Source: Fusobacteriaceae bacterium (GTDB lineage: Bacteria; Fusobacteriota; Fusobacteriia; Fusobacteriales; Fusobacteriaceae). From it: a DNA stretch of 64,000 bases. The position numbers were made by a program, and so were the translations under genes. The stretch's first letter is position 1. Each line of letters starts with the position of its first letter. Of this stretch, positions 45,901-63,030 are shown piece after piece. The DNA lies in the NCBI GenBank assembly GCA_051656905.1, contig JBOFJQ010000015.1, positions 66,861 through 130,860 of the forward strand. The letters run 5' to 3'. The notes below the pieces were generated by a model. That model had not been told where the DNA came from and searched no databases. It was given only the letters and a program-made list of their open reading frames with translations.

Positions 45901-45986
45901 GCCTGGGTGACGAAATGGTAAACGTAGTTGACTCAAAATCAATCGGTGGTAACACCTTGGGGGTTCAAGTCCCCCCTCAGGCACCA
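45901..45986 (+). tRNA. tRNA-Leu (anticodon CAA), CCA encoded
   Basis: I folded the cloverleaf by hand: acceptor gcctggg/ctcaggc, anticodon loop cuCAAaa, long variable arm, T arm ggggg-ttcaagt-ccccc. Confidence 0.93.
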
Positions 45987-45988
45987 AC

Positions 45989-47224
45989 TTATTCATCTTT
46001 AGATTCTAAAGATGTTTTTTTATTTTCTGCTATTTTTTCTAGAATCTTCCCTGTTTTTAGTATATTTTTATTAGAGAGGTGTGTGTAAGTATCCATGGTA
46101 GTATTTATAGTAGAGTGTCCTAGCCACTGTTGAATTTCTTTCATGTCAAGTCCTGCATTGTGAAGCATAGTTGCACATGAGTGACGCAGATCATGGAATC
46201 TAATATCTTTAAAATTATGTTTTCTAATTATTGTTTTAAAGTGTTGTGTAATGTAATTGGGCTTTATAAGGTCACCCATTTCATTTACACATATATTATC
46301 TAAATATTTTTTATTATAAGAGTTTCCAAATTCTAAAATATATTTAGATTGTTTCTCTTTTATCTTTATCAGTAGTTCTTTTAGTTGTGGAATTAAATCT
46401 AATGTTCTATGACTTTTTTTATTTTTTGTTCTTTCTCTATTTTCATACATCTTCTTGTTCCCATCAGAAAACTCTACAATTGTATTTTCAATAACAATAC
46501 AATTATTTTCATAGTCAACACTACTCCATTTAAGCCCTAGTGCTTCACTTCTTCTCAATCCATAAAAAGCAGCGAGGTAAACAGGTAACTCTATATAAGT
46601 TCCTTTTACTACAAGTAATAGCTCATGTATCTCACTAGGAGTTAATGTTTTTGCTATATATTGCCTTTTCTTAGGCTTTTCGACTAAATCCGCTTGGTTA
46701 TTTAAAACCAAGCCTTGTTTTAAAGCCGTTTGTAGAGCCTTTCTAATATTTGCATGGTAATGTAAAACTGTATTTGCACTGATGCCTCTCTCATTTAAGT
46801 GGTAGTTGTAGAACTCTTGTAAGTGAGTAGCTTTCAATTCTTTTAATCCTAAGTTTAGATCTAAAAAGTATGGAATAACATTGTTCTCTATAATGTGTCT
46901 ATATCCAGTATAAGTATTTTTTTCTAAAGTTGATTTAACCGAATTAAGCCAAATTTTTAAGAAATCAGTGAAGAGGATAAAACCCTCTTCTTTTTCTGAA
47001 AGCTTCTTTGTCCATTCTAACCTAAAATCATAAAGCATTGAGTTAGCCTCTGCCAAGTTTTCTTTGCTCTTTGTTTTTGTTTTATCATCAACTAGTAATT
47101 TTGTAGATTTTGATTTTAGTACTTGTTTCTGAGTAATTGGATCATAGAAATTTATAACAGTATGATAAAATCCGTTCTTTTTTCTTAAGTATCCTGCAAT
47201 TAGTTTATCTTCATTTTTTTTCAT
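45989..47224 (-). CDS. int: tyrosine recombinase / phage integrase
   Basis: 411 aa with a SAM-like N-terminal core-binding domain, GLRRSE, HDLRHSCATML and a HxxxxxTxxxYTH C-terminus. Confidence 0.93.
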   Translation of the reverse strand: MKKNEDKLIAGYLRKKNGFYHTVINFYDPITQKQVLKSKSTKLLVDDKTKTKSKENLAEANSMLYDFRLEWTKKLSEKEEGFILFTDFLKIWLNSVKSTLEKNTYTGYRHIIENNVIPYFLDLNLGLKELKATHLQEFYNYHLNERGISANTVLHYHANIRKALQTALKQGLVLNNQADLVEKPKKRQYIAKTLTPSEIHELLLVVKGTYIELPVYLAAFYGLRRSEALGLKWSSVDYENNCIVIENTIVEFSDGNKKMYENRERTKNKKSHRTLDLIPQLKELLIKIKEKQSKYILEFGNSYNKKYLDNICVNEMGDLIKPNYITQHFKTIIRKHNFKDIRFHDLRHSCATMLHNAGLDMKEIQQWLGHSTINTTMDTYTHLSNKNILKTGKILEKIAENKKTSLESKDE

Positions 47225-47235
47225 CTTTTAGGCTC

Positions 47236-47427
47236 CTAATTGTTTTTTTCTAAGAACTCTATTATATTTTTTTTTGTTACTTTATAGAGCTTTCCAACTC
47301 TGGAATGTTTTAACTCTCCTCTAACGCACATTTTTCTTACTGTATCTTTAGAAGCACCGAAATATTTTGCTGTTTCCTCTAAACTTAAAACATCATTATA
47401 GTTTTCTAAACTTTCATAATTTGTCAT
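47236..47427 (-). CDS. xis: excisionase-type HTH DNA-binding protein
   Basis: 63 aa, LSLEETAKYFGASKDTVRKMCVRGELKHSRVGKLYKV, typical of the excisionase family. Start at ATG 47427 after AAGGAG. Confidence 0.7.
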   Translation of the reverse strand: MTNYESLENYNDVLSLEETAKYFGASKDTVRKMCVRGELKHSRVGKLYKVTKKNIIEFLEKNN

Positions 47428-47428
47428 T

Positions 47429-48136
47429 TTAATTCTCCTTTTCAAATAAATTTAAATTATTTTCATTAATTATAAGTTCTTCTTTTTCTTTTATAAAAAG
47501 TTCAATCTCTTCCAGTTCTCTTTTTAAAGATTTGATATTACTTTTATATTGTGAAATATTATTTGAATTTTTGATTAATTTAATTTTATATTTTAAATCT
47601 TTAAATTCGTTTATGATTTCATCATTTTCAACATCTATTATTTCAACTTCTTCTACCTTAATATTATTCTCTATCAATCCAGTATCAAGTAACCAGTATT
47701 TGATTTCCTCTATTGATTTAAGTCCTAATTCAGCAACTTCAATTACTCTTTGAGGTTCTGACAACTTAGATGTCAGCATCTTTACAGCAGGTATACTTAA
47801 AGAACTAACCCAAAGGTGATGTTCTGGAACTTGAATAAAGAGTTCATATCTTTTTAATAGTTCAGAAACTTTGTCTTTATTGAGACCAATGTGCTGATAC
47901 CATTGCATGAATGTCCCATCTTTCTTTAAGATAAGAGAAACATCATAAAGCTCTTTACAGATTTCAAAAATATTTTGAGAATAAGCTTTGAAGGTTCTGA
48001 AAATAATCTCTTCTTTTTTTATAACTTCTTCTATATCTCTTTTTTCAATTTCGCAACTTCCGAAATCGAAGGTAGATTGATACTGAGGTTTAACTTGACC
48101 TTTTAGTCTGTCTAAAGCAGTCATTTTTTTATTCAT
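47429..48136 (-). CDS. hypothetical protein, possible ParB-like partition adaptor
   Basis: The call rests on position only: it overlaps the parA stop. The C-terminus is a coiled coil. I recognise no motif. Confidence 0.4.
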   Translation of the reverse strand: MNKKMTALDRLKGQVKPQYQSTFDFGSCEIEKRDIEEVIKKEEIIFRTFKAYSQNIFEICKELYDVSLILKKDGTFMQWYQHIGLNKDKVSELLKRYELFIQVPEHHLWVSSLSIPAVKMLTSKLSEPQRVIEVAELGLKSIEEIKYWLLDTGLIENNIKVEEVEIIDVENDEIINEFKDLKYKIKLIKNSNNISQYKSNIKSLKRELEEIELFIKEKEELIINENNLNLFEKEN

Positions 48137-48902
48137 TGCAAATCACCTCAATAATTTTTAAAAATATTTCTCTAATCTCTTCTGTTTTAACAGACTTGCT
48201 TTCCCAAACTGATTTACCTTTATCTATTAGCTTTCCTATTTCTCCTGATTGGCTGATAGGCATTGTAAGTAAAATTCCTGTTCCATCTAAGATATCAACT
48301 AACGAATCATAAATTTCTTTTTCTTTAGCTGTTCTAGTAAACCTATTTGGAATAATAGCTTTCACCTTTTTTTTATCAACTTGATTAAGTAAATTTACAA
48401 TTGATGCAGTTGTAACGTTATCTAAAAATGTTGGAATAACTATTTCATCTGCTAACTCTAAAAAGTCTTTATCCAAAGAAAGTGTTGGAGTGGAATCAAT
48501 TATAATATACTCAAATCTTTGTTTTAAAGTTTCTATAAAGTTTATTAACTTTCCTCTTGATGATGTTTTAATATAGTCTGCCATCAAAGGAATGAAATAT
48601 ACATTTTCTCTAATTGAAATTATTTCCCCATCTTTTCCATTAATCCACTCTTCTAATCCACTGTTAAATTCAACATTTTCTTTTCCTGCATAGTGTAAGA
48701 TATTATTTTGAGAATCGGTTGTAAGTATTAGAATTTTTTTGCCTGTTTTTAATTGTAAAGCATGTGCAATTTGGAGAGTAATCCATGATTTTCCAACTCC
48801 GCCTTTATTATTTTTAATTAAAATTATTTTTGCTAGTTCGTTACTTAAAGGCTTAAATTCTCTACAATCAAAGATTGTTTCTACTAGTTCTTTGTATTTC
48901 AT
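48129..48902 (-). CDS. parA: ParA/Soj family partition ATPase
   Basis: Deviant Walker A NNKGGVGKSW and Walker B IIIDSTP. Confidence 0.85.
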   Translation of the reverse strand: MKYKELVETIFDCREFKPLSNELAKIILIKNNKGGVGKSWITLQIAHALQLKTGKKILILTTDSQNNILHYAGKENVEFNSGLEEWINGKDGEIISIRENVYFIPLMADYIKTSSRGKLINFIETLKQRFEYIIIDSTPTLSLDKDFLELADEIVIPTFLDNVTTASIVNLLNQVDKKKVKAIIPNRFTRTAKEKEIYDSLVDILDGTGILLTMPISQSGEIGKLIDKGKSVWESKSVKTEEIREIFLKIIEVICNE

Positions 48903-49150
48903 AGATTACCCTCCTGTTTGATTTTAAAATGCTTTTGCTTTACAGGAACATCAATAAGTATTCCAAAATAAGCTAATTCAAGTTTTTCATTATAAAATTT
49001 ATCTTTAGGTATTTTATATATTGTTTCTAAGTCTCTTATTTCTATTAAATCAACACTGTTTTTATCCTCACGCCATTTATTTCTTAAAAACATTGCTTCT
49101 CCATAATTAAATATCATTTTTAGCATTTTTTTATATTTCATTATTCCCAC
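48899..49150 (-). CDS. hypothetical protein
   Basis: ORF only, coupled to parA by a 4-nt overlap. Confidence 0.4.
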   Translation of the reverse strand: MGIMKYKKMLKMIFNYGEAMFLRNKWREDKNSVDLIEIRDLETIYKIPKDKFYNEKLELAYFGILIDVPVKQKHFKIKQEGNL

Positions 49151-49180
49151 CTCACTAAGATGTTTTAAATTGCATTATAA

Positions 49181-49711
49181 TTAGTTTTCGTTTTCTATTC
49201 TTATTTTATTCCTAAATTTATTTTGAGTCTGCATAAAGGTGTTTTTCATTGTCTCTTGGGTTATTGGATCAAGTTTTATATCTTTTATTTCCTCATTATC
49301 ATCATCGTTTAAATTAGGCATATCAACATTTCCACAAGTATAACCTGTTACTGCTCCATCTAAAATTTTATGAAGTATTTCTTTATGAAAATCAAAATCA
49401 TTTTTAATTTTAATATAAGTATTTTCATCAGTTTTTATTATAAATTTTAATTTGCTCATTTTAGGTTTTCTATAAAAACTACGATATCCAATAGCATTTA
49501 CAATAATTAAAGTTAATAATGTTTTTTCATATTCATTATTTGCTTTAAAAATAAAAAACTTATCTTCTAGAAAATGATCATCATCAATTTTATATTTTTC
49601 TTTTAATTCACAGTACATTTGTAATGCACTTTCTCTTTCTCCTGGAGCAGCTCCTGTATCATCAGCAAGTTTCTTAATTTTTTTTAATTTCTCAATTATT
49701 TTTGAATCCAT
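49181..49711 (-). CDS. DUF2786-like protein
   Basis: The N-terminus IEKLKKIKKLADDTGAAPGERESALQMYCELKEKY resembles the DUF2786 helix pair. Confidence 0.5.
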   Translation of the reverse strand: MDSKIIEKLKKIKKLADDTGAAPGERESALQMYCELKEKYKIDDDHFLEDKFFIFKANNEYEKTLLTLIIVNAIGYRSFYRKPKMSKLKFIIKTDENTYIKIKNDFDFHKEILHKILDGAVTGYTCGNVDMPNLNDDDNEEIKDIKLDPITQETMKNTFMQTQNKFRNKIRIENEN

Positions 49712-49720
49712 TGAATCCTC

Positions 49721-50746
49721 CTAGGCATGCTTAGTCATACTTTCTTCTTTTAAAACTTCTATAATCAAATAATTTCTTATCCCTTCAACGTTGAAAGCTT
49801 TTTCTTGTTCACGTGTTAGTGTTGATTTACCCATTTTCTCAGCAAACTTTAATCTAGCTTTTTCTATAGTTTCCATTTTTTTATCCTCTTCAAAAGTTAG
49901 GAACATTTCATATTCAGCAGAGATTTTTATTGCTTCTGGAATAGGAATAGTTTCTTTTTTTATCTTTGGTAATTCATTGTGAGAAGAAACAACAGGTGTA
50001 ACAGCTATTTTTTTAGCTTGGTAAATAGGTTGTCTTTCTCCTTTTGATATTTTTACACAAAATACTTTTACTGGATCATTAACGCCAGGAGTATTTTTTA
50101 TATTTTCAAAAGTTTCTTTTAAATATTCAGTAACTTTATCTTTAGACAAATTACGTAATAATTTTTTTACTGAGGTCTGATTAAACTTTGTAAAATTTAC
50201 CCCAAGCTCTTTAAAAATATTTTCAAAATAATCAAGTTCAAGACTTTCTTCATGAACATGATTATTAATATAATTATTAACATGATTATTAGGGTCAGTT
50301 TCTGCTATACCCTCATGGCAGTTTCTGCTATACCCCCGTGTCAGATTCTGACCCATAGCAGTTTCTGCTATACCATTTTTTGGATTACTTTTAGTACTTG
50401 TTTTTACTTTTTTATTTTTATTATTTTCGTTTTTATCTTCTAACATTTCTCCTAGAATTTTTTTATATGCTTCTTCACAACAGTTATATTCACAATATTT
50501 AATTTTATTTTTTAGAATATCTGTTTTTATAATTAAATTCTTATCTAGCAGACCATTAAGTGCTTTTTTAGCAGTATTCTTTGAAACATTTAAAGACTTG
50601 CAAATATATTCTAAGCTCCCACTAAACCGACTCTCAAAATCTTGAGAGAAACCATATATAAGAGCGTAGGCAAGTAGTTCGTTACCTGCCAAATTCATTC
50701 TTGTAACCATCCATCCTTGGATAGTATAATAATTATTATCATTCAT
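49721..50746 (-). CDS. phage replication organizer (wHTH N-terminus, DnaD-like C-terminus)
   Basis: The N-terminus YYTIQGWMV...LAGNELLAYALIYGFSQ...SLEYICKSLNVSKNTAKKALNGL is typical of replisome-organizer wHTH domains. Iterons are embedded in the gene. Confidence 0.7.
   Translation of the reverse strand: MNDNNYYTIQGWMVTRMNLAGNELLAYALIYGFSQDFESRFSGSLEYICKSLNVSKNTAKKALNGLLDKNLIIKTDILKNKIKYCEYNCCEEAYKKILGEMLEDKNENNKNKKVKTSTKSNPKNGIAETAMGQNLTRGYSRNCHEGIAETDPNNHVNNYINNHVHEESLELDYFENIFKELGVNFTKFNQTSVKKLLRNLSKDKVTEYLKETFENIKNTPGVNDPVKVFCVKISKGERQPIYQAKKIAVTPVVSSHNELPKIKKETIPIPEAIKISAEYEMFLTFEEDKKMETIEKARLKFAEKMGKSTLTREQEKAFNVEGIRNYLIIEVLKEESMTKHA
50295..50374. repeat. iteron array (candidate ori) inside the replication gene
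   Basis: gcagtttctgctatacc occurs at 50318 and 50358, with a 16/17 copy at 50295 and a degenerate half-copy near 50340. Confidence 0.7.
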
Positions 50747-50761
50747 GTATAAACCTCTCTC

Positions 50762-51112
50762 TTAATTTTGATTTCTTGACTTCCAGTAGTGATCTCTATA
50801 AATTATTCCAAGATTGACACTTCTTCTAATACTTTCAAAAGATAAATCAGATTCTAAAATGTCCTGGTAAGTATATTCTTTAATGAGTATGTTTTTCAAA
50901 TTATATTGCTGATAAATTTGCAGTCTGGTTTTTGTAACTGCTTGTGCTGTATCAGAAAAAAAATGATTGTTTAACTGTTTTTCTATTCTTTTAAAATCAC
51001 TTAGACCACTGGCATAAATGACGTCTAATAATTCTCCAACTTTTCCATATATTCTAAATATATTTTTTTTAGGATAAGAATAATATATTCTTGCATTGTG
51101 TGGTATTTGCAT
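50762..51112 (-). CDS. hypothetical protein
   Basis: 116-aa ORF in the leftward early operon. Confidence 0.4.
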   Translation of the reverse strand: MQIPHNARIYYSYPKKNIFRIYGKVGELLDVIYASGLSDFKRIEKQLNNHFFSDTAQAVTKTRLQIYQQYNLKNILIKEYTYQDILESDLSFESIRRSVNLGIIYRDHYWKSRNQN

Positions 51113-51125
51113 TAGTTTTTCCCCC

Positions 51126-51254
51126 TTAATATTTAATCCCAGTAAGAGTACTTACTTGAGACCAAACTTCACTAGGTGCTCCTTCTAAAATTTTATTTAC
51201 ATTATTAACTTTAAATTCTACGATTACTTTTGAACCAATATATTTAATTTTCAT
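51126..51254 (-). CDS. hypothetical 42-aa protein
   Basis: My own translation gives MKIKYIGSKVIVEFKVNNVNKILEGAPSEVWSQVSTLTGIKY. GGAGG lies 9 nt upstream. Confidence 0.3.
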   Translation of the reverse strand: MKIKYIGSKVIVEFKVNNVNKILEGAPSEVWSQVSTLTGIKY

Positions 51255-51349
51255 AAAATAAAAAACCTCCTAAAAAACTATTTATTTTTTGAGAGGTTCA
51301 TGATACACTATATTTGCGAGATGTAGTGGGTTCAGTGAACCTGCTCTTT

Positions 51350-51802
51350 TTATTTTTTTGATATTGCTTTTAAAGCATTTTCTAATATTAATTTTTCTTC
51401 TATCCCCCTACTTTCATTGCCAAGCTTTTCTCGGCAACATCTAATGTAATCAATTAAAAATATTCTTGTCTTATCATCACACATTTCAAAGTAATCTTCT
51501 TTTTCAAAATTTTCTAATAATTTTTTATGAAATACTTTGTGAAAACTTAACATTTCATCAAAGATAGTTTTTAGTTCATCACTAAAATTATTATCTTTAA
51601 TAGTTGTTTCAATTCTTTTAAAAAATCCAGTTTGCACTGAGTTATGCCAAATAATATGTCCTCTTAAGTCATCTCTCCTTTTATCATCTAATTTATCTAC
51701 TGTTGCCATATATGATAAGTGTTCTTCAACTGTAGTAACACGCACCTGCATGTTCATGCTTCTTTCAAGCTCTTTAGAACTTGCTGTTTCAGTTCTTCCC
51801 AT
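51350..51802 (-). CDS. hypothetical protein
   Basis: 150-aa ORF, second gene after the cro-like gene. Confidence 0.4.
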   Translation of the reverse strand: MGRTETASSKELERSMNMQVRVTTVEEHLSYMATVDKLDDKRRDDLRGHIIWHNSVQTGFFKRIETTIKDNNFSDELKTIFDEMLSFHKVFHKKLLENFEKEDYFEMCDDKTRIFLIDYIRCCREKLGNESRGIEEKLILENALKAISKK

Positions 51803-52233: not shown

Positions 52234-52743
52234 ATGAGCATTAATGAAACAAGTGATATTCCTGAAATAGATAGAAAAAAATTAGGAAATTATATAGATG
52301 AAATAAGAAAAGAAATTTCTTTTGGATTTAATCAGTTATCATTAAAAAGTGGTTTAAATGCGAGAACTTTAAATGAAATATTAAATGGAAATAGTAAAAG
52401 AACAAACCCATATCACTTACAAAAATTAGGTTTTGCTTTAAGAATAGATTATAAAGAGCTTTATAAAATAGTAGGTTATTTATCAGAAGATGATTTTAAA
52501 GAGGCTGATTTGTTAAAAAAAGAAGTTTTAGAGTTAAAGACTAAATTAACAGAATGTGAAAATAAAGTAAACGTAATTAATCATGGAGAAATGTCGGGAA
52601 ACCAAATTTTGGGTAATGTTAATGATTCTGAAATAAAAGTTATCAAAGGGGAAAAAGTGAGCAATATAGATACCTCTGGACTGACAGAAGAGCAATTAAA
52701 GAATTTGGAACAATATATTAAGTTCTTAAGAACACAGGGGTAA
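52234..52743 (+). CDS. cI-like XRE-family repressor (no S24 peptidase domain)
   Basis: HTH FNQLSLKSGLNARTLNEILNG, a coiled-coil C-terminal half, and a GGGAGGAG RBS. Confidence 0.72.
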   Translation: MSINETSDIPEIDRKKLGNYIDEIRKEISFGFNQLSLKSGLNARTLNEILNGNSKRTNPYHLQKLGFALRIDYKELYKIVGYLSEDDFKEADLLKKEVLELKTKLTECENKVNVINHGEMSGNQILGNVNDSEIKVIKGEKVSNIDTSGLTEEQLKNLEQYIKFLRTQG

Positions 52744-52970: not shown

Positions 52971-53942
52971 ATGAATGAGTGGGAAAAAAGCAATGAGGGA
53001 ATAACAAGTAAAAAATGGTTTGTAGTAATAATGCTTCTTTTTTTTACACCAGTAGGAATATATTTTATGTGGCGTAATAACAGTTTTTCTAAAGTAGCTA
53101 GAATTATAATTACAGCAATTATGGGATTATTTTTTGTTGGTATTATGGCAGTTAGTTCAGGTACTTTAAATGACGAAAAAGGACAAAAAGTAATTAAATC
53201 TAATAAAATTGAAGAGGTTAAAGAAGAAAAAATTGATAAAGTTCAAGATGAAAAAGATAAGATTGAACAAGTAAAAAAAGAAATAAAAAAAGTAACACTT
53301 GATTATGAAGCAAGACATTTAGATTTATGGATGGAAATGGCAAATAATATGAAAAAAAGTGATTTACAAAAGACATATGAATATGCGAGTAAGTCACTAG
53401 AACGTGTAAAAAAAATCTATTTAGATACTCTTATGATTAATTTTGAAAAAACAGGGAATGTTGAGTTTGATAATAGAGTAGAAGCATATAAAGATAAATT
53501 AAATACTGCTTATTACTTAAAGAAAGATTCTTTAGAAAAACTTCTTTTAGCACTTGAAGATACAAGTTCTATTAAGAGAGCTAATGAAGTTAAAGAAGCA
53601 ATGGAGAAAGCTAGTAATTATTGGACAACTTTTCAATTTAGTACAGCGATAATGACTATTACAGATGATGATATTAAGTCTTATAATGAACAGAAAGAAA
53701 AAGAAACAGCTATTAATGAAGAAATAAAAAAAGAAGTTGCGAAAGAGAAAGTGGTAAAAGAAGTAGTTAAACCTAAAAAACTGTCATATAGCGAAGATGA
53801 TGTTTATACTCATTTAATTTGGAAAGGTTATAGCGGTGAAAGATCTTTAGAGAGATTTAAAGAGGCAAATGGAATGCCTGCAAATAAGGTTATAAATGAA
53901 AAAGTATTAAAAGCTTTAGGAATGGAAATAAAGTATAAATAA
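52971..53942 (+). CDS. membrane-anchored coiled-coil protein with PG-binding-like C-terminus
   Basis: Two N-terminal TM helices, a K/E-rich helical body, and the tail VYTHLIWKGYSGERSLERFKEANGMPANKVINEKVLKALGM, which resembles PG_binding_1. Confidence 0.6.
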   Translation: MNEWEKSNEGITSKKWFVVIMLLFFTPVGIYFMWRNNSFSKVARIIITAIMGLFFVGIMAVSSGTLNDEKGQKVIKSNKIEEVKEEKIDKVQDEKDKIEQVKKEIKKVTLDYEARHLDLWMEMANNMKKSDLQKTYEYASKSLERVKKIYLDTLMINFEKTGNVEFDNRVEAYKDKLNTAYYLKKDSLEKLLLALEDTSSIKRANEVKEAMEKASNYWTTFQFSTAIMTITDDDIKSYNEQKEKETAINEEIKKEVAKEKVVKEVVKPKKLSYSEDDVYTHLIWKGYSGERSLERFKEANGMPANKVINEKVLKALGMEIKYK

Positions 53943-53980
53943 GAAGTTAATAAAAAATTAATATACAGGGGGAAAAAATA

Positions 53981-54685
53981 ATGGGATTTATCGGTTTTGC
54001 AATAGTAATAATTTTTATAGGGGCAATTTGTATGCTCAGAATGATTTCTAAAATGAAAAAAAGAATAGAAGGGGAGTTATTGAGCTTTGCAGATAAAGGG
54101 TTTGGTAAAATATTCGTAGGGGATGATGGGAAATCAGGTATTGGAGCTAATCTTGATGATTATAAGCTAGTTTTAGTTGAACTTAAAGGGAAGGAAATCT
54201 TTTCTAATATTATAGATTATAAAGATATAGTTTCTGTAGAGTTAGTACAAAACGGAACAATTGTAAGCAAGACATCAAAAAGTTCTCAACTAGGAAAAGC
54301 AGCTGTAGGAGGTGTTTTATTTGGTGGAGCTGGAGCAGTTATCGGTGCTTTAAGTGGAAATAAAAAAAATGTTGAAAATGTTAGTAAAGTACAAGCTAAA
54401 TTAACTATTCAAGATTTGAAAATGCCAATTTTTAATGTTACATTTATGGATGCTAATTTTAAGAAGGATGGTTTTTTTCATAAAGCTATGATTCAAAAAG
54501 CAGAAGAATGGATTGGAATAATAAGTGCAATGATAAAAAAGGCAGAGCAAGACATAATTTATCAATCTCAGGGATCTAATACAGCATCTAATTATGTTGA
54601 TGAAATAGAAAGATTGCATTCTTTAAAAGAAAAAGGAATAATAACTGAAGAAGAGTTTAATAAGAAAAAAGCAGAATTATTATAA
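53981..54685 (+). CDS. membrane protein with glycine zipper and C-terminal SHOCT domain
   Basis: N-terminal TM, glycine zipper AAVGGVLFGGAGAVIGALSG, and SHOCT-like tail IERLHSLKEKGIITEEEFNKKKAELL. Confidence 0.6.
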   Translation: MGFIGFAIVIIFIGAICMLRMISKMKKRIEGELLSFADKGFGKIFVGDDGKSGIGANLDDYKLVLVELKGKEIFSNIIDYKDIVSVELVQNGTIVSKTSKSSQLGKAAVGGVLFGGAGAVIGALSGNKKNVENVSKVQAKLTIQDLKMPIFNVTFMDANFKKDGFFHKAMIQKAEEWIGIISAMIKKAEQDIIYQSQGSNTASNYVDEIERLHSLKEKGIITEEEFNKKKAELL

Positions 54686-54729
54686 AAATAAATAATATTA
54701 TTAATAAAGAAATTATTTTAGGGGGAAAG

Positions 54730-55614
54730 ATGGGGATAAATAATCAATTTGAGGTTTTTTGTAATAATATAAAAATTCAAAAAAGTAATGTTGATAAAAT
54801 AGCAAATCGTTATAAAACAATAACAAAATTATTGAATAAAGAATACTATTCTACAGAGTCTGATACTGCACATAGCCTATATGTTGGATCGTATGGGAGA
54901 GACACTGATATTCATACAAGTGATATTGATATTTTATTTTGGCTTCCTTGGGAGAAATATACGCAGTATAAGAATTATTTATATAATGGACAATCTGCAT
55001 TAATTCAAGATGTAAAAAATGTAATAAAAAAAACATACCCTTCATCAGCTATACGTGGGGATGGACAAGTTATTATTATTGATTTTTATGATGGAATGAA
55101 ATTTGAAATTGTTCCTTGTTTTGAACTTAGTGATAAGTCATTTCTTTACCCTGATACAAATGAAGGAGGTAGCTGGAAGTATACTTATCCAAGAAAAGAA
55201 ATTGAAGAAATTAGAAATGAAAACTTCTATAAATGTAACAAAAATTTAAAAAGGCTATGTAGAATGGCTAGAGCTTGGAAAGAAAAGAATTCTGTTAATA
55301 TTTCGGGATATTTAATAGATACACTAGCGTATAAATTTTTAAAAGGATGGTCATATAAGAATTATTCTTATATGTTTTATGATTGGATGATTCGTGATTT
55401 TTTTTCATATTTAAAGGAGCAAAATATATATCAACAATATTGGGTAGTTCCAGGAAGTAATAAGTATGTTTACCGTTATGGACAGTCATTTGAATATAAA
55501 GCATTACTAGCATTTAATTTAGCTGTAGAAGCAATAGAATATAATACGAATAATTGTCCTTATACTGCTACAGGAAAATGGAAAGAAATTTTTGGTGCAA
55601 AATTTCCGTATTAA
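54730..55614 (+). CDS. SMODS-type nucleotidyltransferase (CD-NTase-like)
   Basis: Pol-beta NTase signature GSYGRDTDIHTSDIDILF, third acidic strand KFEIVPCF, and GGSWKYTYP and LKRLCRMARAWK segments as in SMODS proteins. Confidence 0.75.
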   Translation: MGINNQFEVFCNNIKIQKSNVDKIANRYKTITKLLNKEYYSTESDTAHSLYVGSYGRDTDIHTSDIDILFWLPWEKYTQYKNYLYNGQSALIQDVKNVIKKTYPSSAIRGDGQVIIIDFYDGMKFEIVPCFELSDKSFLYPDTNEGGSWKYTYPRKEIEEIRNENFYKCNKNLKRLCRMARAWKEKNSVNISGYLIDTLAYKFLKGWSYKNYSYMFYDWMIRDFFSYLKEQNIYQQYWVVPGSNKYVYRYGQSFEYKALLAFNLAVEAIEYNTNNCPYTATGKWKEIFGAKFPY

Positions 55615-55627
55615 GGGAGGTAAAAAA

Positions 55628-56269
55628 TTGACAAAGTCAGATTTTCTTAAATTAATAGCACAGAAAGCTTATGATGTATTATATGGTGCTAAATTAAATT
55701 TTTCAACATATGAAATAGTAGTAAAAGTTCCTGGGTTTTTAAATGTTATTTCACTAAGTGTCGGAATCTTTTCATTAGTTATAGACTATTTTTCTAACAA
55801 AATACTTTCAGCTATTGTTTTGATATTAGCAATCATTTCTTTATATATTTCAAAATATGAAGAAGAAATTAATTCTTATCAAGAAACAGGGGAAAAATTA
55901 ACTATTATTCAGAATAATTTAAAAAAGTTATATAGTGAAGTTAAATCTAAAGCTGATAATGAAAGATTTAAAGATTCTGAAGAAATGAAAGAATATAATA
56001 AACTAGACTCTGAATTTTTACTAATAAAGCAAAAAAAGCAAATAGTATTTAGTGGTTGGAGAGCTCATGTTATGATTTTTGGACAGCATCAAATTGACTG
56101 GATTGATGAACAGTTAAAATTTAAATTTTGGAAAGATAAGATACCCGCAACTTTTAAATTATTTATGTGGATGTCTATAGTAGTAATTATAGTAATAATT
56201 ACTACTATAATTTTTTCTGATTCTAAAAGTTCAGAGCAATGTTTAATGTTGTTTATAAATAATTTATAA
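55628..56269 (+). CDS. SLATT-like transmembrane effector
   Basis: TTG 55628 lies 7 nt after GGAGG. The protein has an N-terminal YGAKLNFSTYEI motif, two closely spaced TM helices, a coiled coil and a third C-terminal TM. Confidence 0.6.
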   Translation: MTKSDFLKLIAQKAYDVLYGAKLNFSTYEIVVKVPGFLNVISLSVGIFSLVIDYFSNKILSAIVLILAIISLYISKYEEEINSYQETGEKLTIIQNNLKKLYSEVKSKADNERFKDSEEMKEYNKLDSEFLLIKQKKQIVFSGWRAHVMIFGQHQIDWIDEQLKFKFWKDKIPATFKLFMWMSIVVIIVIITTIIFSDSKSSEQCLMLFINNL

Positions 56270-56306
56270 AGTAGATAATAGAAATATAGAGTCTTTGGAG
56301 GAATTT

Positions 56307-57377
56307 GTGTTTGATAATATAATAGATAAGATAAAAAAAGTTGGCGGAGAAGAAAAATATTGGCTTTTTAGAGCTGGAACAAAAGCAAAATATTTTGACA
56401 ATTTTTTTTATAGTAGAAAAATAGGATTAGCTTGGGATAAAATAGATGATATATCACAAACTTCGAGTCTTTTAACTCTTACAAATGAAGTTAAAAGGTT
56501 ATATCCAGAAGAAAAAAGGCCAGGGAATATATATAATAAAATTTATTCTTTTATTCACGAAATGAAAAATGGAGATTTTATTGTAATGCCTGATACAGAA
56601 AAGAAAAGAATAGCTATAGGAAGACTAATAGATGATAATGTTGAAATAAAAAAAATAGAAGAACAATTATCTCTTATGCCTATTAAAAGTCAGGAGAATT
56701 ATGATGAAGAGGAAAAAACAGATCCTGGTGTTATAAATAAATATAGGAACATAGAGTGGATTAAAGTAATGATAAAAGAAGAACTAACAGCAGAATTAGA
56801 ATTATTTTTATTTGCACCTCATAGTATATCTGAATTATCTAAAAGTGCTCAATATGAAATAAACAAATTAATATATGACTGTTTTATAAATCAAGATAAT
56901 ATATACTTGAAATATAAAGTTGATACAAGAACAGATATATTAGCGGATGATATATTGATGTTTTATAAATTGATTGACTATAGCGAGAAATTATCTAATA
57001 TATTAGAAGAAGAACCTAGAAAGATAAAAACAAAAATAAATGTAGCGTCACCAGGAGATATTGTTGCAATTGGTGGAGTATCTATTGGTTTGATATTAGC
57101 TTTAGGATATGTATTCAATGGCGGAAAAATTTCAATAAAAATTGGAGAAAAATTTAATTTTAATGCAGAAGGAGGAACACCTCTACAAGAATTTTTTAGT
57201 AATAGGCATAAAAATAAAATGGAAAAAATGAAATTCCAAGCAAGATTAGAAGAGTTGGAAGAGTTAGAAAGAAAATTTAAGAATGAAATAACTCATGAAG
57301 ATATAAAAAAAATGGAAAAAAGCTTAGAATTAAAAACACCTAAAATAATAGAAGAACAAAAAGAAAAGGAAGATTAA
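56307..57377 (+). CDS. hypothetical 356-aa protein: soluble N-domain, one TM near residue 260, charged coiled-coil tail
   Basis: GTG 56307 lies 4 nt after GGAGG (the ORF track starts at TTG 56295). I recognise no family. Confidence 0.55.
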   Translation: MFDNIIDKIKKVGGEEKYWLFRAGTKAKYFDNFFYSRKIGLAWDKIDDISQTSSLLTLTNEVKRLYPEEKRPGNIYNKIYSFIHEMKNGDFIVMPDTEKKRIAIGRLIDDNVEIKKIEEQLSLMPIKSQENYDEEEKTDPGVINKYRNIEWIKVMIKEELTAELELFLFAPHSISELSKSAQYEINKLIYDCFINQDNIYLKYKVDTRTDILADDILMFYKLIDYSEKLSNILEEEPRKIKTKINVASPGDIVAIGGVSIGLILALGYVFNGGKISIKIGEKFNFNAEGGTPLQEFFSNRHKNKMEKMKFQARLEELEELERKFKNEITHEDIKKMEKSLELKTPKIIEEQKEKED

Positions 57378-57580
57378 ACTCTTCCTATTTTTATTTCAAG
57401 ATTATTTATTTTATTATCATTAATTCTTATGAAATTAAAAATCACTATAAGAGAAGATAAACCCTTTATAACATCTTGCCAAATAACAGATATGTTAAGA
57501 TTATTAAAAGGAATATAATATATTAAAGAAAAGCAAAGAAAAACAAAACTAAATATAGAAAAATATATGGTAATTTTCAT
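57374..57580 (-). CDS. 68-aa two-TM protein, convergent
   Basis: AGGAGG lies 9 nt upstream. MKITIYFSIFSFVFLCFSLIYYI is followed by a second TM. The stop overlaps the 56307-57377 stop by 4 nt. Confidence 0.45.
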   Translation of the reverse strand: MKITIYFSIFSFVFLCFSLIYYIPFNNLNISVIWQDVIKGLSSLIVIFNFIRINDNKINNLEIKIGRV

Positions 57581-59767: not shown

Positions 59768-60334
59768 GTGTTTTCTATAGGTAGGTTAGATAAGAATAAA
59801 ATCTATTCAATAAGAATAAGATATGAGCATGGAGAAAATTTAAAAGATTTAGCTTTAGAATTTAAAGTCCCTCTCATTACAATTCACAAAAGAAAAAAGA
59901 AAAGTGAACTAAAAGGCGATCCATGGGTAAAAGGTTTTAGGTCTATAGAAGGTTTTAAAGAGTTTTCACAAGATAATGAATCAGCTAAATTAAAATTAGA
60001 TATGGTCATTACAGAGAAGGCTAGGAAAGAGTTTATATCACTAGAGAGAAACATAGATAGACTTTACAGTGATAAGAATACACTGCTAATTCCTGAGGCA
60101 GAGAAAGCTTTTCAAGTGAGAGGAACAAGAATAGTTAAGCAGTTAGAACTGAGAAGGAAAATAGAAGGGATCTATACTCCAGAACAACAACTACTAATTG
60201 ATACAGCAAAGGCAACTATAAAAGTAAAAGAGAAGGATGCTGAGTTGAAGGCACTGGAGATAAAGAGTAAAGAGATAGACTATAAACTAAAAGAAGAGGA
60301 AAGCAGACATTATTTAAAAGGAGGTAATAGTTAG
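59768..60334 (+). CDS. HTH plus coiled-coil protein (regulator or TerS-accessory), start uncertain
   Basis: N-terminal HTH NLKDLALEFKVPLITIHKRKKK. The annotated GTG abuts the GGAGG, so the true start is unclear. Confidence 0.45.
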   Translation: MFSIGRLDKNKIYSIRIRYEHGENLKDLALEFKVPLITIHKRKKKSELKGDPWVKGFRSIEGFKEFSQDNESAKLKLDMVITEKARKEFISLERNIDRLYSDKNTLLIPEAEKAFQVRGTRIVKQLELRRKIEGIYTPEQQLLIDTAKATIKVKEKDAELKALEIKSKEIDYKLKEEESRHYLKGGNS

Positions 60335-60765
60335 TGAATAAGATATGTCCTAGATGTAGAAAGGTTTACTCATACAATGACAGGACTTGCCCTAACGGGT
60401 GCAGTGACAAGAGAAAGAAAGAGAGCAACAAAGTATATGACAAGGAACAAAGAGCTAATAAAGACCTCTACAACTCAAGAGAGTGGAAGCTCTTAAGAGA
60501 AGCCTGCAAGAAAAGATTTAGTGGCTTATGTATATGGAGTCTATATGCTCATGAAAGAATAGTTCATGGAACATTGACTCATCACATAGTACCTGTTGAA
60601 GATGCAGAAGATAAAGCATTAGATCCTGATAACTTAATCTATCTATCTGATACAGCTCATAGAGAGATACATGAGCTGTATAACAATGATAAAGAAGTAA
60701 CACAGGCATTACTACTTGAATATATCAAGCTATGGAATGATACAGATGAGGGAGTGGGGCTATAA
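60334..60765 (+). CDS. HNH endonuclease (packaging-associated)
   Basis: Zn ribbon CPRC...CPNGC and HNH core HHIVPV...N...HREIH, located directly before terS. Confidence 0.85.
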   Translation: MNKICPRCRKVYSYNDRTCPNGCSDKRKKESNKVYDKEQRANKDLYNSREWKLLREACKKRFSGLCIWSLYAHERIVHGTLTHHIVPVEDAEDKALDPDNLIYLSDTAHREIHELYNNDKEVTQALLLEYIKLWNDTDEGVGL

Positions 60766-60774
60766 AAAAGTTTT

Positions 60775-60815
60775 CGAGAAACTGCGGGATACCGCATCTC
60801 CCCTACAGCGTACGC
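60775..60815. other. candidate cos site (GC-rich island between hnh and terS)
   Basis: actgcgggataccgcatctcccctacagcgtacgc is about 63% GC in a ~30% GC background. It contains the palindromes gcgg-gata-ccgc and gcgtacgc. Confidence 0.4.
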
Positions 60816-60859
60816 AAATTTGTAAATGGAAAAAAATATAAAAAATCTGGGGGAAATAT

Positions 60860-61312
60860 ATGGGAAGAAAAGTTCCTTTAGAATTACAAAAGGGAGATTT
60901 AACAGATAAGGTAAAAAAACAAAAAGAATTAGAAGAAGCATCAGTATTTGTAGGAAATGAGCAATTGGAAAAACCTCCAGAATGGCTTATAAACGATAAG
61001 GCAATAGAGGAATGGAAAAGGCTTGTAAAAGAATTTAATAAAAAATCATTAATTAGTAATCTTGATTATAACAACTTAGGAGCTTACTGCAATTCTTTTG
61101 CTAAGTACACTGAGGTAGTAAATAAAATGGGTATGAATCTAATGATAGGAAAGACTACTAATCCTTTAATAACATTAGAACTTAAGTATTCTGATGAAAT
61201 GAAGAGGTATGGTAGCTTATTAGGGCTTACATCAGAATCAAGACTAAAGTTAGGTGGAATAAAAGCAGGAGAGCAAAATCAAGAAGTAAGCAATTCGTTT
61301 GGTGACATATGA
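60860..61312 (+). CDS. terS: terminase small subunit, P27 family
   Basis: 150 aa. PPEWL...W..L...L...L...D...L..YC and the C-terminal LGLTSESRLKL are typical of P27-family TerS. Confidence 0.8.
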   Translation: MGRKVPLELQKGDLTDKVKKQKELEEASVFVGNEQLEKPPEWLINDKAIEEWKRLVKEFNKKSLISNLDYNNLGAYCNSFAKYTEVVNKMGMNLMIGKTTNPLITLELKYSDEMKRYGSLLGLTSESRLKLGGIKAGEQNQEVSNSFGDI

Positions 61313-63030
61313 TGACAATAAGAGAAGAGCTAATTAAATATTCAGAAGAGTGTATTTATAGGGAATCAATAAATGGAAAAAAGCATATATGGGCTTGTAA
61401 AAGGTTTCTAAAAGACTTAAAAAGCGATTTTGAATATTATTGGAATGAAGAGGAAGCAGTAAAAATTGTTAAATGGTTTGAATATTTAAGACATAGCAAA
61501 GGGGTATTGGCAGGGCAACCAATAAAGTTAACGACTTGGCAAAAATTTAATCTGTGTCAAATCTATGGATGGAGAAATAAATCAGATCATAGAAAAAGAT
61601 TTAAACTAAGTTTCATAGAAGTTGGAAGAAAACAAGCAAAATCACAGATGCAAGCAGGAGTATTACTTTATGAAATGTCTGTTCAATCTACAAAGAACAA
61701 TGAAATCTATGAAACCTATTGTGCAGGAACAAAAAGAGAGCAATCCAAGATAATTTTTAATGAATGTAGAAATCTATTAACAGGAAGTCCTTTAGCTCCT
61801 AAGTTTAAATTAAAAAATACAGAAATAGTTCATATAAAAACGGGTTCTTTTTTAAAACCACTAAGTAAAGAGGATGGGAAAAAAGGAGACGGTACAAATC
61901 CTGCTGTCCTAGTATTGGATGAATATCATCAACATACAACAACAGAATTTTATGATTTAGGGTTGGGGTCTAATACAAAAGAACCTCTTCTGATGATTAT
62001 AACAACGGCAGGAGTTGATTTAAACTCACCATGTTACACCCAAGAATATAAATACTGCTCTGATATTCTTAACCCTGCCTCAGATGTTGAAAATGATAAT
62101 TACTTTATTGATATTTGTGAAATAGATAAAGATGATGATATTTATGATAGAAAAAATTGGCTTAAAGCTAATCCATTAAGAATGACATATCCAGAGGGAA
62201 TAGCACAATTGGAATCAGCTTTTAAAGTAGCAGAAGATGTTCCTGAAAAGATGGTAGCCTTTAAAACCAAATGCTTGAATATGTGGATACAAGCAAAAGA
62301 CCAAGGCTATATGGATATGGAGAAGTGGAAAAAATGCCAGGTAAAAGAGTTGCCTTATTGCATATTAAATAGACCTGTTTATGTTGGGTTTGATATGTCA
62401 GCAAAGATAGACCTTACCAGTGTAGCATTTGTTATTCCAATAATGGATGAAGGAAAAGCAAAATATATAATATTTAGCCACTCTTTTATACCAAATAGAG
62501 AAAAGTTAATGGAAAGAAAAGCAGTTGATAAAGTTCCTTATGACACGTGGGAAGAACTAGGATTTTTAACAGTAACTAACACCCCAATCGTGGACCAAGA
62601 AGCAGTTATGCAATACGTACTTGAAACTTGTAAGAAAAATAAATGGGAAATAAAGCACTTATGCTTTGATCCCGCAAATGCCTCTAAGCTAATGATGGAT
62701 TTAGAGACTAAGGGAGGATATGAGGTAACAGAGGTATTCCAGTCTCATAAATCACTTAATGAAAGTACTCAAGGCTTTAGAGAACAGGTATATTCGGGTA
62801 ATGTCTATTACTTGTATAATCCACTACTAAATTATGCAATGGGAAACGCTGTAATAAAGCAGAATAACGGTTTAATAAAAATAGATAAAGATGCAACTAC
62901 AAAGAGGATAGACCCGATAGATGCCCTGTTATGTGGTTATAAGCTATCAATGTATCATGAGTTTGAGTTCGACATAACACAATATGCAGAGGAAGATTAC
63001 TTAGATAAGCTTTATGGAGGGGGTGAATAG
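61309..63030 (+). CDS. terL: terminase large subunit
   Basis: 573 aa with Walker A GRKQAKS, Walker B VLVLDEYH and a C-terminal nuclease domain (IDPIDA). Confidence 0.92.
   Translation: MMTIREELIKYSEECIYRESINGKKHIWACKRFLKDLKSDFEYYWNEEEAVKIVKWFEYLRHSKGVLAGQPIKLTTWQKFNLCQIYGWRNKSDHRKRFKLSFIEVGRKQAKSQMQAGVLLYEMSVQSTKNNEIYETYCAGTKREQSKIIFNECRNLLTGSPLAPKFKLKNTEIVHIKTGSFLKPLSKEDGKKGDGTNPAVLVLDEYHQHTTTEFYDLGLGSNTKEPLLMIITTAGVDLNSPCYTQEYKYCSDILNPASDVENDNYFIDICEIDKDDDIYDRKNWLKANPLRMTYPEGIAQLESAFKVAEDVPEKMVAFKTKCLNMWIQAKDQGYMDMEKWKKCQVKELPYCILNRPVYVGFDMSAKIDLTSVAFVIPIMDEGKAKYIIFSHSFIPNREKLMERKAVDKVPYDTWEELGFLTVTNTPIVDQEAVMQYVLETCKKNKWEIKHLCFDPANASKLMMDLETKGGYEVTEVFQSHKSLNESTQGFREQVYSGNVYYLYNPLLNYAMGNAVIKQNNGLIKIDKDATTKRIDPIDALLCGYKLSMYHEFEFDITQYAEEDYLDKLYGGGE

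What the first reader, a model, noticed from the sequence alone, without database searches (positions are those of the whole stretch)
54730..56269. Minimal SMODS nucleotidyltransferase + SLATT-like 2TM pair (CBASS-like signalling without any accessory or sensor gene)
The 294-aa protein carries GSYGRDTDIHTSDIDILF (GS...DxD) and a third acidic strand, KFEIVPCF. Its overall layout matches the SMODS family. The next gene is separated by 13 nt and has its own GGAGG and TTG start. It encodes YGAKLNFSTYEI followed by two adjacent TM helices, a coiled coil and a third TM. That is the architecture defined computationally as SLATT (Burroughs et al. 2015), and it is grouped with the 2TM effectors of type I CBASS (Millman et al. 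2020). No SAVED, STING, Cap2/3 or HORMA genes are present. I cannot infer the nucleotide product, the trigger or the gating mechanism of this short clade from the sequence.
Basis: partly seen in the sequence, partly recalled or inferred. Interest (0 to 1): 0.75.

Follow-up and report, generated by a model that had tools for sequence, protein, structure and literature searches.

The report
Prophage-borne two-gene CBASS (cyclase + SLATT_6)
This is an ordinary two-gene "type I CBASS" anti-phage system, a signal-making enzyme plus a membrane-killing protein, carried on a prophage of a Fusobacteriaceae bacterium; its only unusual feature is a rarely seen pairing of enzyme subtype and effector subtype.

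Summary
Gene 54730..55614 encodes a 294-aa SMODS/CD-NTase cyclase (Pfam E=3e-46; PADLOC "Cyclase" E=2e-126, full length). Its AlphaFold model matches only CD-NTases (TM 0.80 to PaCdnD), and GS/DxD/E is invariant in homologues. After 13 nt, gene 55628..56269 (TTG start, GGGAGG RBS) encodes a 213-aa SLATT_6 protein (Pfam E=1e-56; NCBIfam above cut-off; PADLOC "2TM effector" E=4e-67). It has a TM hairpin, a helical soluble region and a third TM. No Cap2/3, HORMA/TRIP13, SAVED or STING gene is nearby.

It is therefore a type I CBASS, a known kind. AGS-C-cyclase + SLATT6 operons from E. coli have been shown to restrict phages ≥10^4-fold (bioRxiv 10.1101/2023.05.21.541620).

One twist: every SLATT_6 locus sampled through its effector (73 genomic, 9 viral) has a cyclase carrying a C-terminal AGS-C-sized tail. 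Short cyclases like this one pair with SLATT_4 in 67 of 72 loci and with SLATT_6 in only 3. The pairing here is uncommon but not unique.

The pair lies in a rightward gene cluster of a prophage integrated at tRNA-Leu, next to a candidate defence gene (DUF8426/PDC-S02-like). The nucleotide product, the trigger and SLATT gating remain unknown. Interest is low.

The parts
54720..54725 (+). Shine-Dalgarno-like AGGGGG upstream of the cyclase start
   Evidence: Read directly from the sequence.
54730..55614 (+). CD-NTase / SMODS cyclase, 294 aa, with no AGS-C domain
   Evidence: Pfam SMODS E=2.8e-46. PADLOC Cyclase PDLC00786 E=2e-126, positions 1-293 of 293. AF2 pLDDT 92.5. Foldseek top hit PaCdnD 6P82, TM 0.80.
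54886..54930 (+). Catalytic motif G53-S54 ... D65-x-D67 (codons 54886-54891, 54922-54924, 54928-54930)
   Evidence: Invariant in 36 homologues. Aligns with the GS...DID motif of PaCdnD.
55105..55107 (+). Third catalytic acidic residue, E126 (KFEIVPCF strand)
   Evidence: Invariant in alignment A1. Aligns with the third Asp strand (VDAVPAF) of PaCdnD.
55615..55620 (+). GGGAGG ribosome-binding site of the effector, inside the 13-nt intergenic spacer
   Evidence: Read directly from the sequence.
55628..56269 (+). SLATT_6 membrane effector, 213 aa, TTG start
   Evidence: Pfam SLATT_6 E=1.3e-56. NCBIfam NF033630 211 bits, above the cut-off of 100. PADLOC Effector 2TM PDLC00695 E=4e-67. PHROG 23029.
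55730..55855 (+). TM hairpin (TM1 about aa 35-55, TM2 about aa 58-76)
   Evidence: Kyte-Doolittle 19-residue means of 1.9-2.2. Helical in the AF2 model.
56156..56218 (+). Third, C-terminal TM helix (about aa 177-197), mostly beyond the end of the Pfam SLATT_6 match (residue 179)
   Evidence: Kyte-Doolittle mean 2.85. A hydrophobic tail is present in all 17 aligned homologues.
56295..57377 (+). Neighbouring gene (context only, not part of the CBASS): DUF8426 / PDC-S02-like candidate defence protein
   Evidence: PADLOC PDC-S02 E=2.8e-17, partial match. PHROG 10226 E=5e-40. DUF8426 on the L001 orthologue. Absent next to the pair in the other loci with gene tables.
57367..57386 (.). First terminator-like hairpin downstream of the gene cluster
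   Evidence: Consensus scan. No such site lies between 52.7 kb and this point.
45901..47224 (.). Context: tRNA-Leu(CAA) and the abutting tyrosine integrase, marking the prophage end
   Evidence: ARAGORN. Phage_integrase Pfam and PHROG 1.

Best explanation
A two-gene type I CBASS abortive-infection module carried as cargo on a prophage of an uncultured Fusobacteriaceae bacterium.

Proposed mechanism:
1. The cyclase is held inactive until a phage cue appears late in infection. This step is inferred, and the cue is unknown.
2. The cyclase then uses its GS/DxD/E active site to make a cyclic di- or tri-nucleotide from NTPs. The fold and active site are shown. The activity and the product are inferred.
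3. The signal is sensed by the cytoplasmic part of the SLATT_6 protein, probably the conserved N-terminal helix together with the conserved residue 138-173 region. Both lie on the same side of the TM hairpin. This step is inferred.
4. The SLATT_6 protein oligomerises or opens in the membrane, collapsing membrane integrity or potential. The cell dies or arrests before the phage completes its cycle. This is inferred by analogy with Cap14, Cap15 and tested SLATT6 operons.

The pair sits in a rightward cluster that starts at a repressor-like HTH gene and has no terminator-like site before 57367. It is therefore probably expressed from the lysogen and protects the host and prophage against superinfecting phages.
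For: Family assignment: (SMODS, SLATT_6, PADLOC cyclase and 2TM effector, all full length).

Fold: (only CD-NTases and cGAS among the top 50 matches).

Active site conserved.

Topology.

Operon structure: a 13-nt gap with its own RBS. The same pair occurs at 96% and 99% identity on an independent metagenome contig.

No ancillary Cap genes.

Conserved cyclase-SLATT adjacency: about 150 other loci.

Experimental precedent: minimal two-gene type I operons suffice for defence, and EcCdnF04-SLATT6 and EcCdnF05-SLATT6 restrict phages by at least 10^4-fold (bioRxiv 10.1101/2023.05.21.541620). E. coli AGS-C-cyclase + SLATT_6 operons are 36-38% (cyclase) and 35-39% (effector) identical to this pair.

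Prophage context.

Transcription unit.
Against: - Nothing here was tested functionally.
- The tested SLATT6 operons have AGS-C-fused cyclases, which this one lacks.
- SLATT proteins have no recognised nucleotide-binding domain and no solved structure. The best Foldseek E-value was 1.1 and the best sequence E-value 0.42, so the sensing and gating steps are conjecture.
- NCBIfam's CBASS_cyclase_b equivalog scores 108 bits, below its cut-off of 200.
- The comparison with L001 shows 11 nonsynonymous against 4 synonymous differences in the cyclase. That is too few to demonstrate purifying selection.
- The promoter scan is no better than shuffled sequence, so co-transcription is only suggested.
Confidence: 0.85

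Rival explanations
1. The pair is a decaying or mis-matched remnant. An effector swap, or loss of the AGS-C domain, placed a short cyclase next to a SLATT_6 effector that does not recognise its product, so the module no longer signals.
For: All 82 SLATT_6 loci sampled through the effector have AGS-C-tailed cyclases. Short cyclases pair with SLATT_4 in 67 of 72 loci. SLATT_4 and SLATT_6 profiles are barely alike (hhalign E=0.022). The L001 copy of the cyclase has W207C and D218H at nearly invariant positions.
Against: Both ORFs are intact, with RBSs and tight spacing. The window copy keeps every invariant residue. The same short-cyclase + SLATT_6 arrangement recurs in three unrelated metagenome loci: L106, L121 and L170. 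An AGS-C cyclase 57% identical to this one pairs with SLATT_6 (L093), so this cyclase lineage is compatible with SLATT_6.
Confidence: 0.08
2. The pair serves the prophage's own life cycle rather than defence, for example as a nucleotide-gated holin-like lysis timer or a lysogeny/induction switch.
For: The pair lies inside a prophage, between the immunity region and the packaging genes. The effector is a small multi-TM protein. PHROGs holds families for both proteins.
Against: Homologous pairs are mostly chromosomal and sit in defence islands, next to type I R-M, RloB/AAA_21, Qat and other restriction-modification genes. Tested SLATT6 operons act as anti-phage defence outside any prophage. No deposited phage genome carries a SLATT_6 gene.
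Confidence: 0.05
3. The NTase is a non-signalling nucleotidyltransferase (MNT/KNTase-type toxin-antitoxin or resistance enzyme) that happens to lie beside a membrane protein.
For: A weak NTP_transf_2 hit of 20.6 bits. All Pol-beta-fold NTases share the GS...DxD motif.
Against: NTP_transf_2 scores below its cut-off of 21, while SMODS scores 158 bits. There are 25 or more PADLOC CBASS cyclase profile hits. Foldseek returns only CD-NTases and cGAS. The neighbour is a bona fide SLATT_6 protein.
Confidence: 0.02

Closest known systems
Type I CBASS with SLATT6 effector (EcCdnF04-SLATT6, EcCdnF05-SLATT6; Richmond-Buccola et al., bioRxiv 10.1101/2023.05.21.541620)
   Same: Two-gene operon of a CD-NTase followed by a SLATT_6 protein, with no ancillary Cap genes. 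E. coli operons of this type are 36-38% (cyclase core) and 35-39% (effector) identical to the window pair. One E. coli copy is also prophage-borne.
   Different: The tested cyclases carry a C-terminal AGS-C Ig-like domain of about 18 kDa, and this one ends at residue 294 without it. I could not confirm that the E. coli loci I fetched are the exact operons tested. I also could not place this cyclase in clade F for lack of reference sequences.
Short SMODS cyclase + SLATT_4 type I CBASS (for example Francisella philomiragia, Acinetobacter and Sulfuricurvum loci L002-L005)
   Same: The cyclases are 56-60% identical, have the same length of about 292 aa and end at the same position. The layout is the same two-gene arrangement.
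   Different: The effector there is SLATT_4 (PF18186, about 180-190 aa). It has no BLAST similarity to the window effector and only marginal profile similarity.
Cap14 (Saf-2TM + SAVED) and Cap15 (2TM + beta-barrel) membrane effectors of type I CBASS
   Same: They are membrane-embedded effectors of two-gene CBASS operons. Cap14 is a nucleotide-gated ion channel (PMC10402079). This is the working model for how a TM effector kills or arrests the cell.
   Different: SLATT_6 has no SAVED or beta-barrel ligand-binding domain. No sequence or fold similarity was detected to any solved structure.
P. aeruginosa CdnD (PDB 6P82, type III CBASS)
   Same: It is the closest solved structure to the cyclase: TM 0.80, 21-23% identity and a profile E-value of 1e-17. 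The GS/DxD/acidic active site is the same.
   Different: PaCdnD works with HORMA and TRIP13 regulators and a NucC effector. None of these is present here.

Membership tests
Type I CBASS | A CD-NTase/SMODS cyclase gene with intact GS...DxD...D/E catalytic residues | tested here: met
   Pfam SMODS 158 bits against a cut-off of 26.5. PADLOC cyclase match is full length. G53, S54, D65, D67 and E126 are invariant. The model has the CD-NTase fold.
Type I CBASS | An adjacent, co-oriented gene for a recognised Cap effector class | tested here: met
   A SLATT_6 / PADLOC '2TM' effector lies 13 nt downstream.
Type I CBASS | No ancillary genes of types II-IV (Cap2/Cap3, HORMA/TRIP13, QueC/TGT/OGG) and no CapW or CapH/CapP regulators | tested here: met
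   Pfam and PADLOC scans of the proteins examined between 47.4 and 63 kb gave no such hit.
Type I CBASS | Cyclase-dependent protection against phage | not testable with these tools
   This needs cloning and a phage challenge. Precedent exists only for AGS-C-type SLATT6 operons.
Type I CBASS | Synthesis of a cyclic oligonucleotide that activates the effector | not testable with these tools
   The product cannot be read from the sequence, and no close characterised enzyme exists (best PDB identity 21-23%).
SLATT_6 (PF18169 / NF033630) | A full-length profile match above the curated cut-offs | tested here: met
   PF18169 scores 191.4 bits against a cut-off of 27.1, covering profile positions 1-175 of 176. 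NF033630 scores 211 bits against a cut-off of 100.
SLATT_6 (PF18169 / NF033630) | Two adjacent TM helices followed by a helical soluble region | tested here: met
   Kyte-Doolittle profile and AF2 secondary structure. There is an extra C-terminal TM that homologues share.
SLATT_6-type CBASS as usually found (AGS-C-fused cyclase) | The cyclase carries a C-terminal AGS-C domain (PF18134) | tested here: not met
   No PF18134 hit. The protein ends at residue 294, exactly at the end of the catalytic core. All 82 effector-sampled comparison loci have a tail of 141-160 aa.
NCBIfam CBASS_cyclase_b equivalog (NF041117) | A score at or above the curated cut-off of 200 bits | tested here: not met
   108.2 bits. 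The protein is related but not a member of that equivalog.
CD-NTase clade F (CdnF) | Phylogenetic placement among reference CdnF sequences | not tested
   Reference sequences and tables (Whiteley 2019, Millman 2020, Table S1 of Richmond-Buccola) were not available. There is an indirect hint only: the preprint says clades F and G have branches with and without AGS-C and names SLATT6 partners for F04 and F05.
MNT / NTP_transf_2 non-signalling nucleotidyltransferases | A Pfam PF01909 match above the gathering score, or the fold nearest to MNT/KNTase | tested here: not met
   20.6 bits against a cut-off of 21, over 39 residues only. The top 50 Foldseek hits are all CD-NTases or cGAS.

The most novel reading that the evidence does not exclude
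The AGS-C-less cyclase + SLATT_6 combination is a functional, independently recurring hybrid. That would show two things. First, AGS-C is dispensable for coupling to SLATT_6. Second, two barely related SLATT families (SLATT_4 and SLATT_6) read the same cyclase-lineage signal. The natural set of short+SLATT_4, short+SLATT_6 and AGS-C+SLATT_6 operons would then be a ready-made swap series for locating the still-unknown nucleotide-sensing site of SLATT effectors and the role of AGS-C.
Probability: 0.35. Interest if true: 0.4.

Novelty: new member of a known kind. Interest (0 to 1): 0.2.

Why it matters
In itself it matters little. It adds a prophage-borne type I CBASS from an uncultured Fusobacteriaceae lineage to a family with thousands of members.

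Its modest value is comparative. SLATT effectors are among the most common CBASS effectors, yet I found no solved structure or defined ligand site for them. The function of the AGS-C domain is also unknown. This locus belongs to a small natural set in which SLATT_6 works, or at least persists, without AGS-C. That set could guide domain-swap and ligand-binding experiments.

The locus also illustrates defence cargo clustered in the immunity-proximal region of a temperate phage, with the CBASS pair next to a DUF8426/PDC-S02-like candidate gene.

Tried and rejected
- **CD-NTase clade assignment failed.** Whiteley 2019, Millman 2020, Burroughs 2015 and the published Richmond-Buccola paper are not held. 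The preprint has no supplement text. An accession search found nothing.
- **A literature search for 'SLATT' returned slatted-floor papers**. It was repeated as a whole-word search. That found no structural or mechanistic SLATT paper.
- **No relative of the effector has a solved structure**, by either sequence or fold search.
- **Exact-sequence look-up of the window cyclase found no contig**. The 96%-identical P0001 was used instead.
- **dN/dS against L001 is uninformative**, with only 15 and 3 nucleotide differences.
- **Promoter-like sites are no more frequent than in shuffled sequence**, so no promoter is claimed.
- **The second att site is not in the window**, so the prophage's right end is undefined.
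- **A faint cyclase-profile hit on ORF 50762..51112** (E=0.008) was dismissed as noise.
- **The DUF8426 gene is not a third CBASS component.** It is absent from the other cyclase-SLATT loci with gene tables and matches a separate PADLOC candidate family.
- **Deposited phage genomes add little.** There is no SLATT_6 hit and only two distant cyclase hits.

Full report
**Observation**

The two ORFs exist as described. ORF 1 runs from ATG 54730 to the stop at 55612-55614 and encodes 294 aa, with AGGGGG six bases upstream. After 13 nt containing GGGAGG, TTG 55628 opens a 213-aa ORF that ends at 56269. The mechanical ORF list extends ORF 2 to an upstream TTG (55592). The alignment of homologues, the gene call on a near-identical contig and the RBS all favour 55628.

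**What the proteins are: cyclase**

- It matches Pfam SMODS over the whole profile (E=2.8e-46, 158 bits against a cut-off of 26.5).
- It matches PADLOC's CBASS cyclase profile PDLC00786 end to end (E=2e-126).
- The generic NTP_transf_2 match is below threshold.
- An AlphaFold2 model built on 36 homologues is confident (pLDDT 92.5).
- The 50 best Foldseek matches in the PDB are all CD-NTases or cGAS. The best is P. aeruginosa CdnD (TM 0.80, 21-23% identity), followed by CdnC, CdnB, CdnE and CdnG.
- G53, S54, D65, D67 and E126 are invariant in the alignment. They align with the GS...DID...D active site of CdnD.
- The family is very large: 5183 clusters at E<=1e-5. The nearest non-self relatives are 55-61% identical, about 290 aa long and spread over many phyla.

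**What the proteins are: effector**

- It matches Pfam SLATT_6 (E=1.3e-56), NCBIfam SLATT_6 (211 bits against a cut-off of 100) and PADLOC 'Effector 2TM' (E=4e-67).
- Hydropathy gives a TM hairpin (about 35-55 and 58-76), a soluble region of about 100 residues, and a third TM (about 177-197) that all homologues share.
- The AF2 model is all-helical (pLDDT 84).
- It resembles nothing in the PDB by sequence or fold.
- SLATT_6 is a modest family: 197 clusters at 50% identity among 1.84 billion representatives. The window protein is at most 45% identical to members outside its own cluster.

**Surroundings**

The window comes from an uncultured Fusobacteriaceae MAG with about 27% GC. A tRNA-Leu(CAA) at 45901-45986 abuts a tyrosine integrase. 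Leftward genes for a ParA-like protein and a DnaD-like/Rep protein follow. A repressor-like HTH gene at 52234 opens a rightward cluster. HNH, TerS and TerL genes lie at 60.3-63.0 kb. The region is therefore a prophage, and its right end lies outside the window.

The rightward cluster holds these genes, separated by gaps of 13-44 nt:
- 52234, the HTH gene;
- 52769;
- 52971, a membrane protein;
- 53981, a PH_gly_zipper+SHOCT protein;
- the cyclase;
- the effector;
- 56295, a DUF8426/PDC-S02-like protein.

No terminator-like site occurs before 57367-57386. No Cap2/3, HORMA/TRIP13, SAVED, STING, CapW or CapH/P homologue was found in any protein scanned between 47.4 and 63 kb.

An independent metagenome contig (L001) carries the same SHOCT-cyclase-SLATT_6-DUF8426 block, with 96% and 99% protein identity for the cyclase and effector.

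**Comparative pattern**

Loci were sampled in two ways.

*Starting from the effector:*
- SLATT_6 genes in metagenome contigs L006-L011 and L093 follow cyclases of 425-448 aa that carry Pfam AGS_C.
- In 80 GTDB genome loci, all 73 with an upstream cyclase have a tail of 141-160 aa beyond the catalytic core.
- All 9 IMG/VR loci have the same tail.

*Starting from the cyclase:*
- 80 metagenome loci hold short cyclases 52-58% identical to this one.
- Of 72 downstream partners, 67 are SLATT_4, 3 are SLATT_6 (L106, L121, L170), one is a second cyclase, and one matched no SLATT family.
- The window cyclase nests within this short-cyclase group in a neighbour-joining tree. One AGS-C cyclase that pairs with SLATT_6 (L093, 57% identical) is a close neighbour.

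SLATT_4 and SLATT_6 profiles are barely similar (hhalign E=0.022).

The window therefore holds an uncommon, but recurrent, combination of an AGS-C-less cyclase with SLATT_6. This fits the published view that effectors are exchanged between closely related type I cyclases.

**Comparison with what is known**

SMODS-SLATT pairs were defined computationally, and type I CBASS is the minimal cyclase-plus-effector class. Both statements rest on my own knowledge of Burroughs 2015 and Millman 2020, which I could not open.

The preprint by Richmond-Buccola et al. (10.1101/2023.05.21.541620) reports the following:
- Type I operons mostly carry effectors with 2 or 4 predicted TM segments.
- About 40% of type I operons have AGS-C-fused cyclases.
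- Clades F and G have branches with and without AGS-C.
- Minimal two-gene operons suffice for defence.
- EcCdnF04-SLATT6 and EcCdnF05-SLATT6 restrict phages from five families by at least 10^4-fold.

E. coli complete genomes contain AGS-C-cyclase + SLATT_6 operons in 90 of 5426 genomes. One sits beside a Qat system and one inside a lambdoid prophage. They are 36-38% (cyclase) and 35-39% (effector) identical to the window pair. That these are the tested operons is my inference.

For TM effectors, the best-characterised mechanism is Cap14, a cGAMP-gated chloride channel (PMC10402079). No equivalent study of a SLATT protein turned up.

**Mechanism proposed**

| Step | Status |
|---|---|
| CD-NTase fold with a complete active site | Shown |
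| Membrane protein of the SLATT_6 family, translationally close-coupled to the cyclase | Shown |
| No ancillary regulators | Shown |
| Prophage cargo location | Shown |
| The cyclase is activated by an unknown phage cue | Inferred |
| The cyclase makes a cyclic oligonucleotide | Inferred |
| The cytoplasmic face of SLATT_6 (conserved N-terminal helix plus residues 138-173) binds the signal | Inferred |
| The protein opens or oligomerises, breaching the membrane and aborting infection | Inferred |
| The lysogen expresses the cluster, so it excludes superinfecting phages | Inferred |

Confidence that this is a type I CBASS working broadly in this way is about 0.85.

**Rival explanations**

- A mismatched or decaying pair (about 0.08).
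- A role in the prophage's own life cycle (about 0.05).
- A non-signalling NTase (about 0.02, effectively refuted).

**Verdict**

It is a new member of a known, experimentally validated kind, and the specific pairing is only a minor curiosity. Interest is 0.2.

Noticed in passing
window 56295-57377 (+): A 360-aa protein lies directly downstream of the effector after a 25-nt gap. It has a partial PADLOC PDC-S02 hit (E=3e-17) and a full-length PHROG 10226 hit (E=5e-40). Its L001 orthologue carries Pfam DUF8426. A terminator-like hairpin follows at 57367-57386. It is probably a separate candidate defence gene that forms a mini defence island with the CBASS pair.
   Followed up: partly
window 52971-54685 (+): Two membrane-protein genes lie upstream in the same rightward cluster. 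One is a 323-aa TM protein with no family. The other is a 234-aa PH_gly_zipper + SHOCT protein (phrog_888). The SHOCT gene is conserved upstream of the pair in L001.
   Followed up: partly
window 45901-51802 and 60334-63030: A prophage is integrated at tRNA-Leu(CAA). Its integrase, ParA-like partition ATPase and DnaD-like/Rep genes lie on the minus strand, which gives it phage-plasmid-like features. HNH, TerS and TerL lie on the plus strand. The second att site is not within the window.
   Followed up: partly
L114 2501-5206 (metagenome Ga0302250_1000265): A short cyclase is directly followed by a second cyclase that carries SMODS+AGS_C (441 aa) and then a 181-aa ORF. This is a tandem arrangement of the two cyclase forms.
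   Followed up: no
L175 5989-7865 (IMG/VR UViG_2841687456_000004): The gene order is reversed here: the SLATT_6 gene precedes the AGS-C cyclase.
   Followed up: no
L001 854-1738: This near-identical copy of the cyclase, from another sample, carries W207C and D218H at positions that are nearly invariant in the family. Across the gene there are 11 nonsynonymous and 4 synonymous differences from the window. This may indicate relaxed constraint in that copy.
   Followed up: partly
L183 and L184 (E. coli FDAARGOS_536 and R1): E. coli AGS-C-cyclase + SLATT_6 operons occur in 90 of 5426 complete genomes. One sits next to the Qat system. One sits inside a lambdoid prophage beside hok/gef.
   Followed up: partly
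window 50762-51112 (-): This 116-aa ORF has a faint hit to a PADLOC cyclase profile (E=0.008, 13.8 bits, no significant stretch). It is most likely noise.
   Followed up: no
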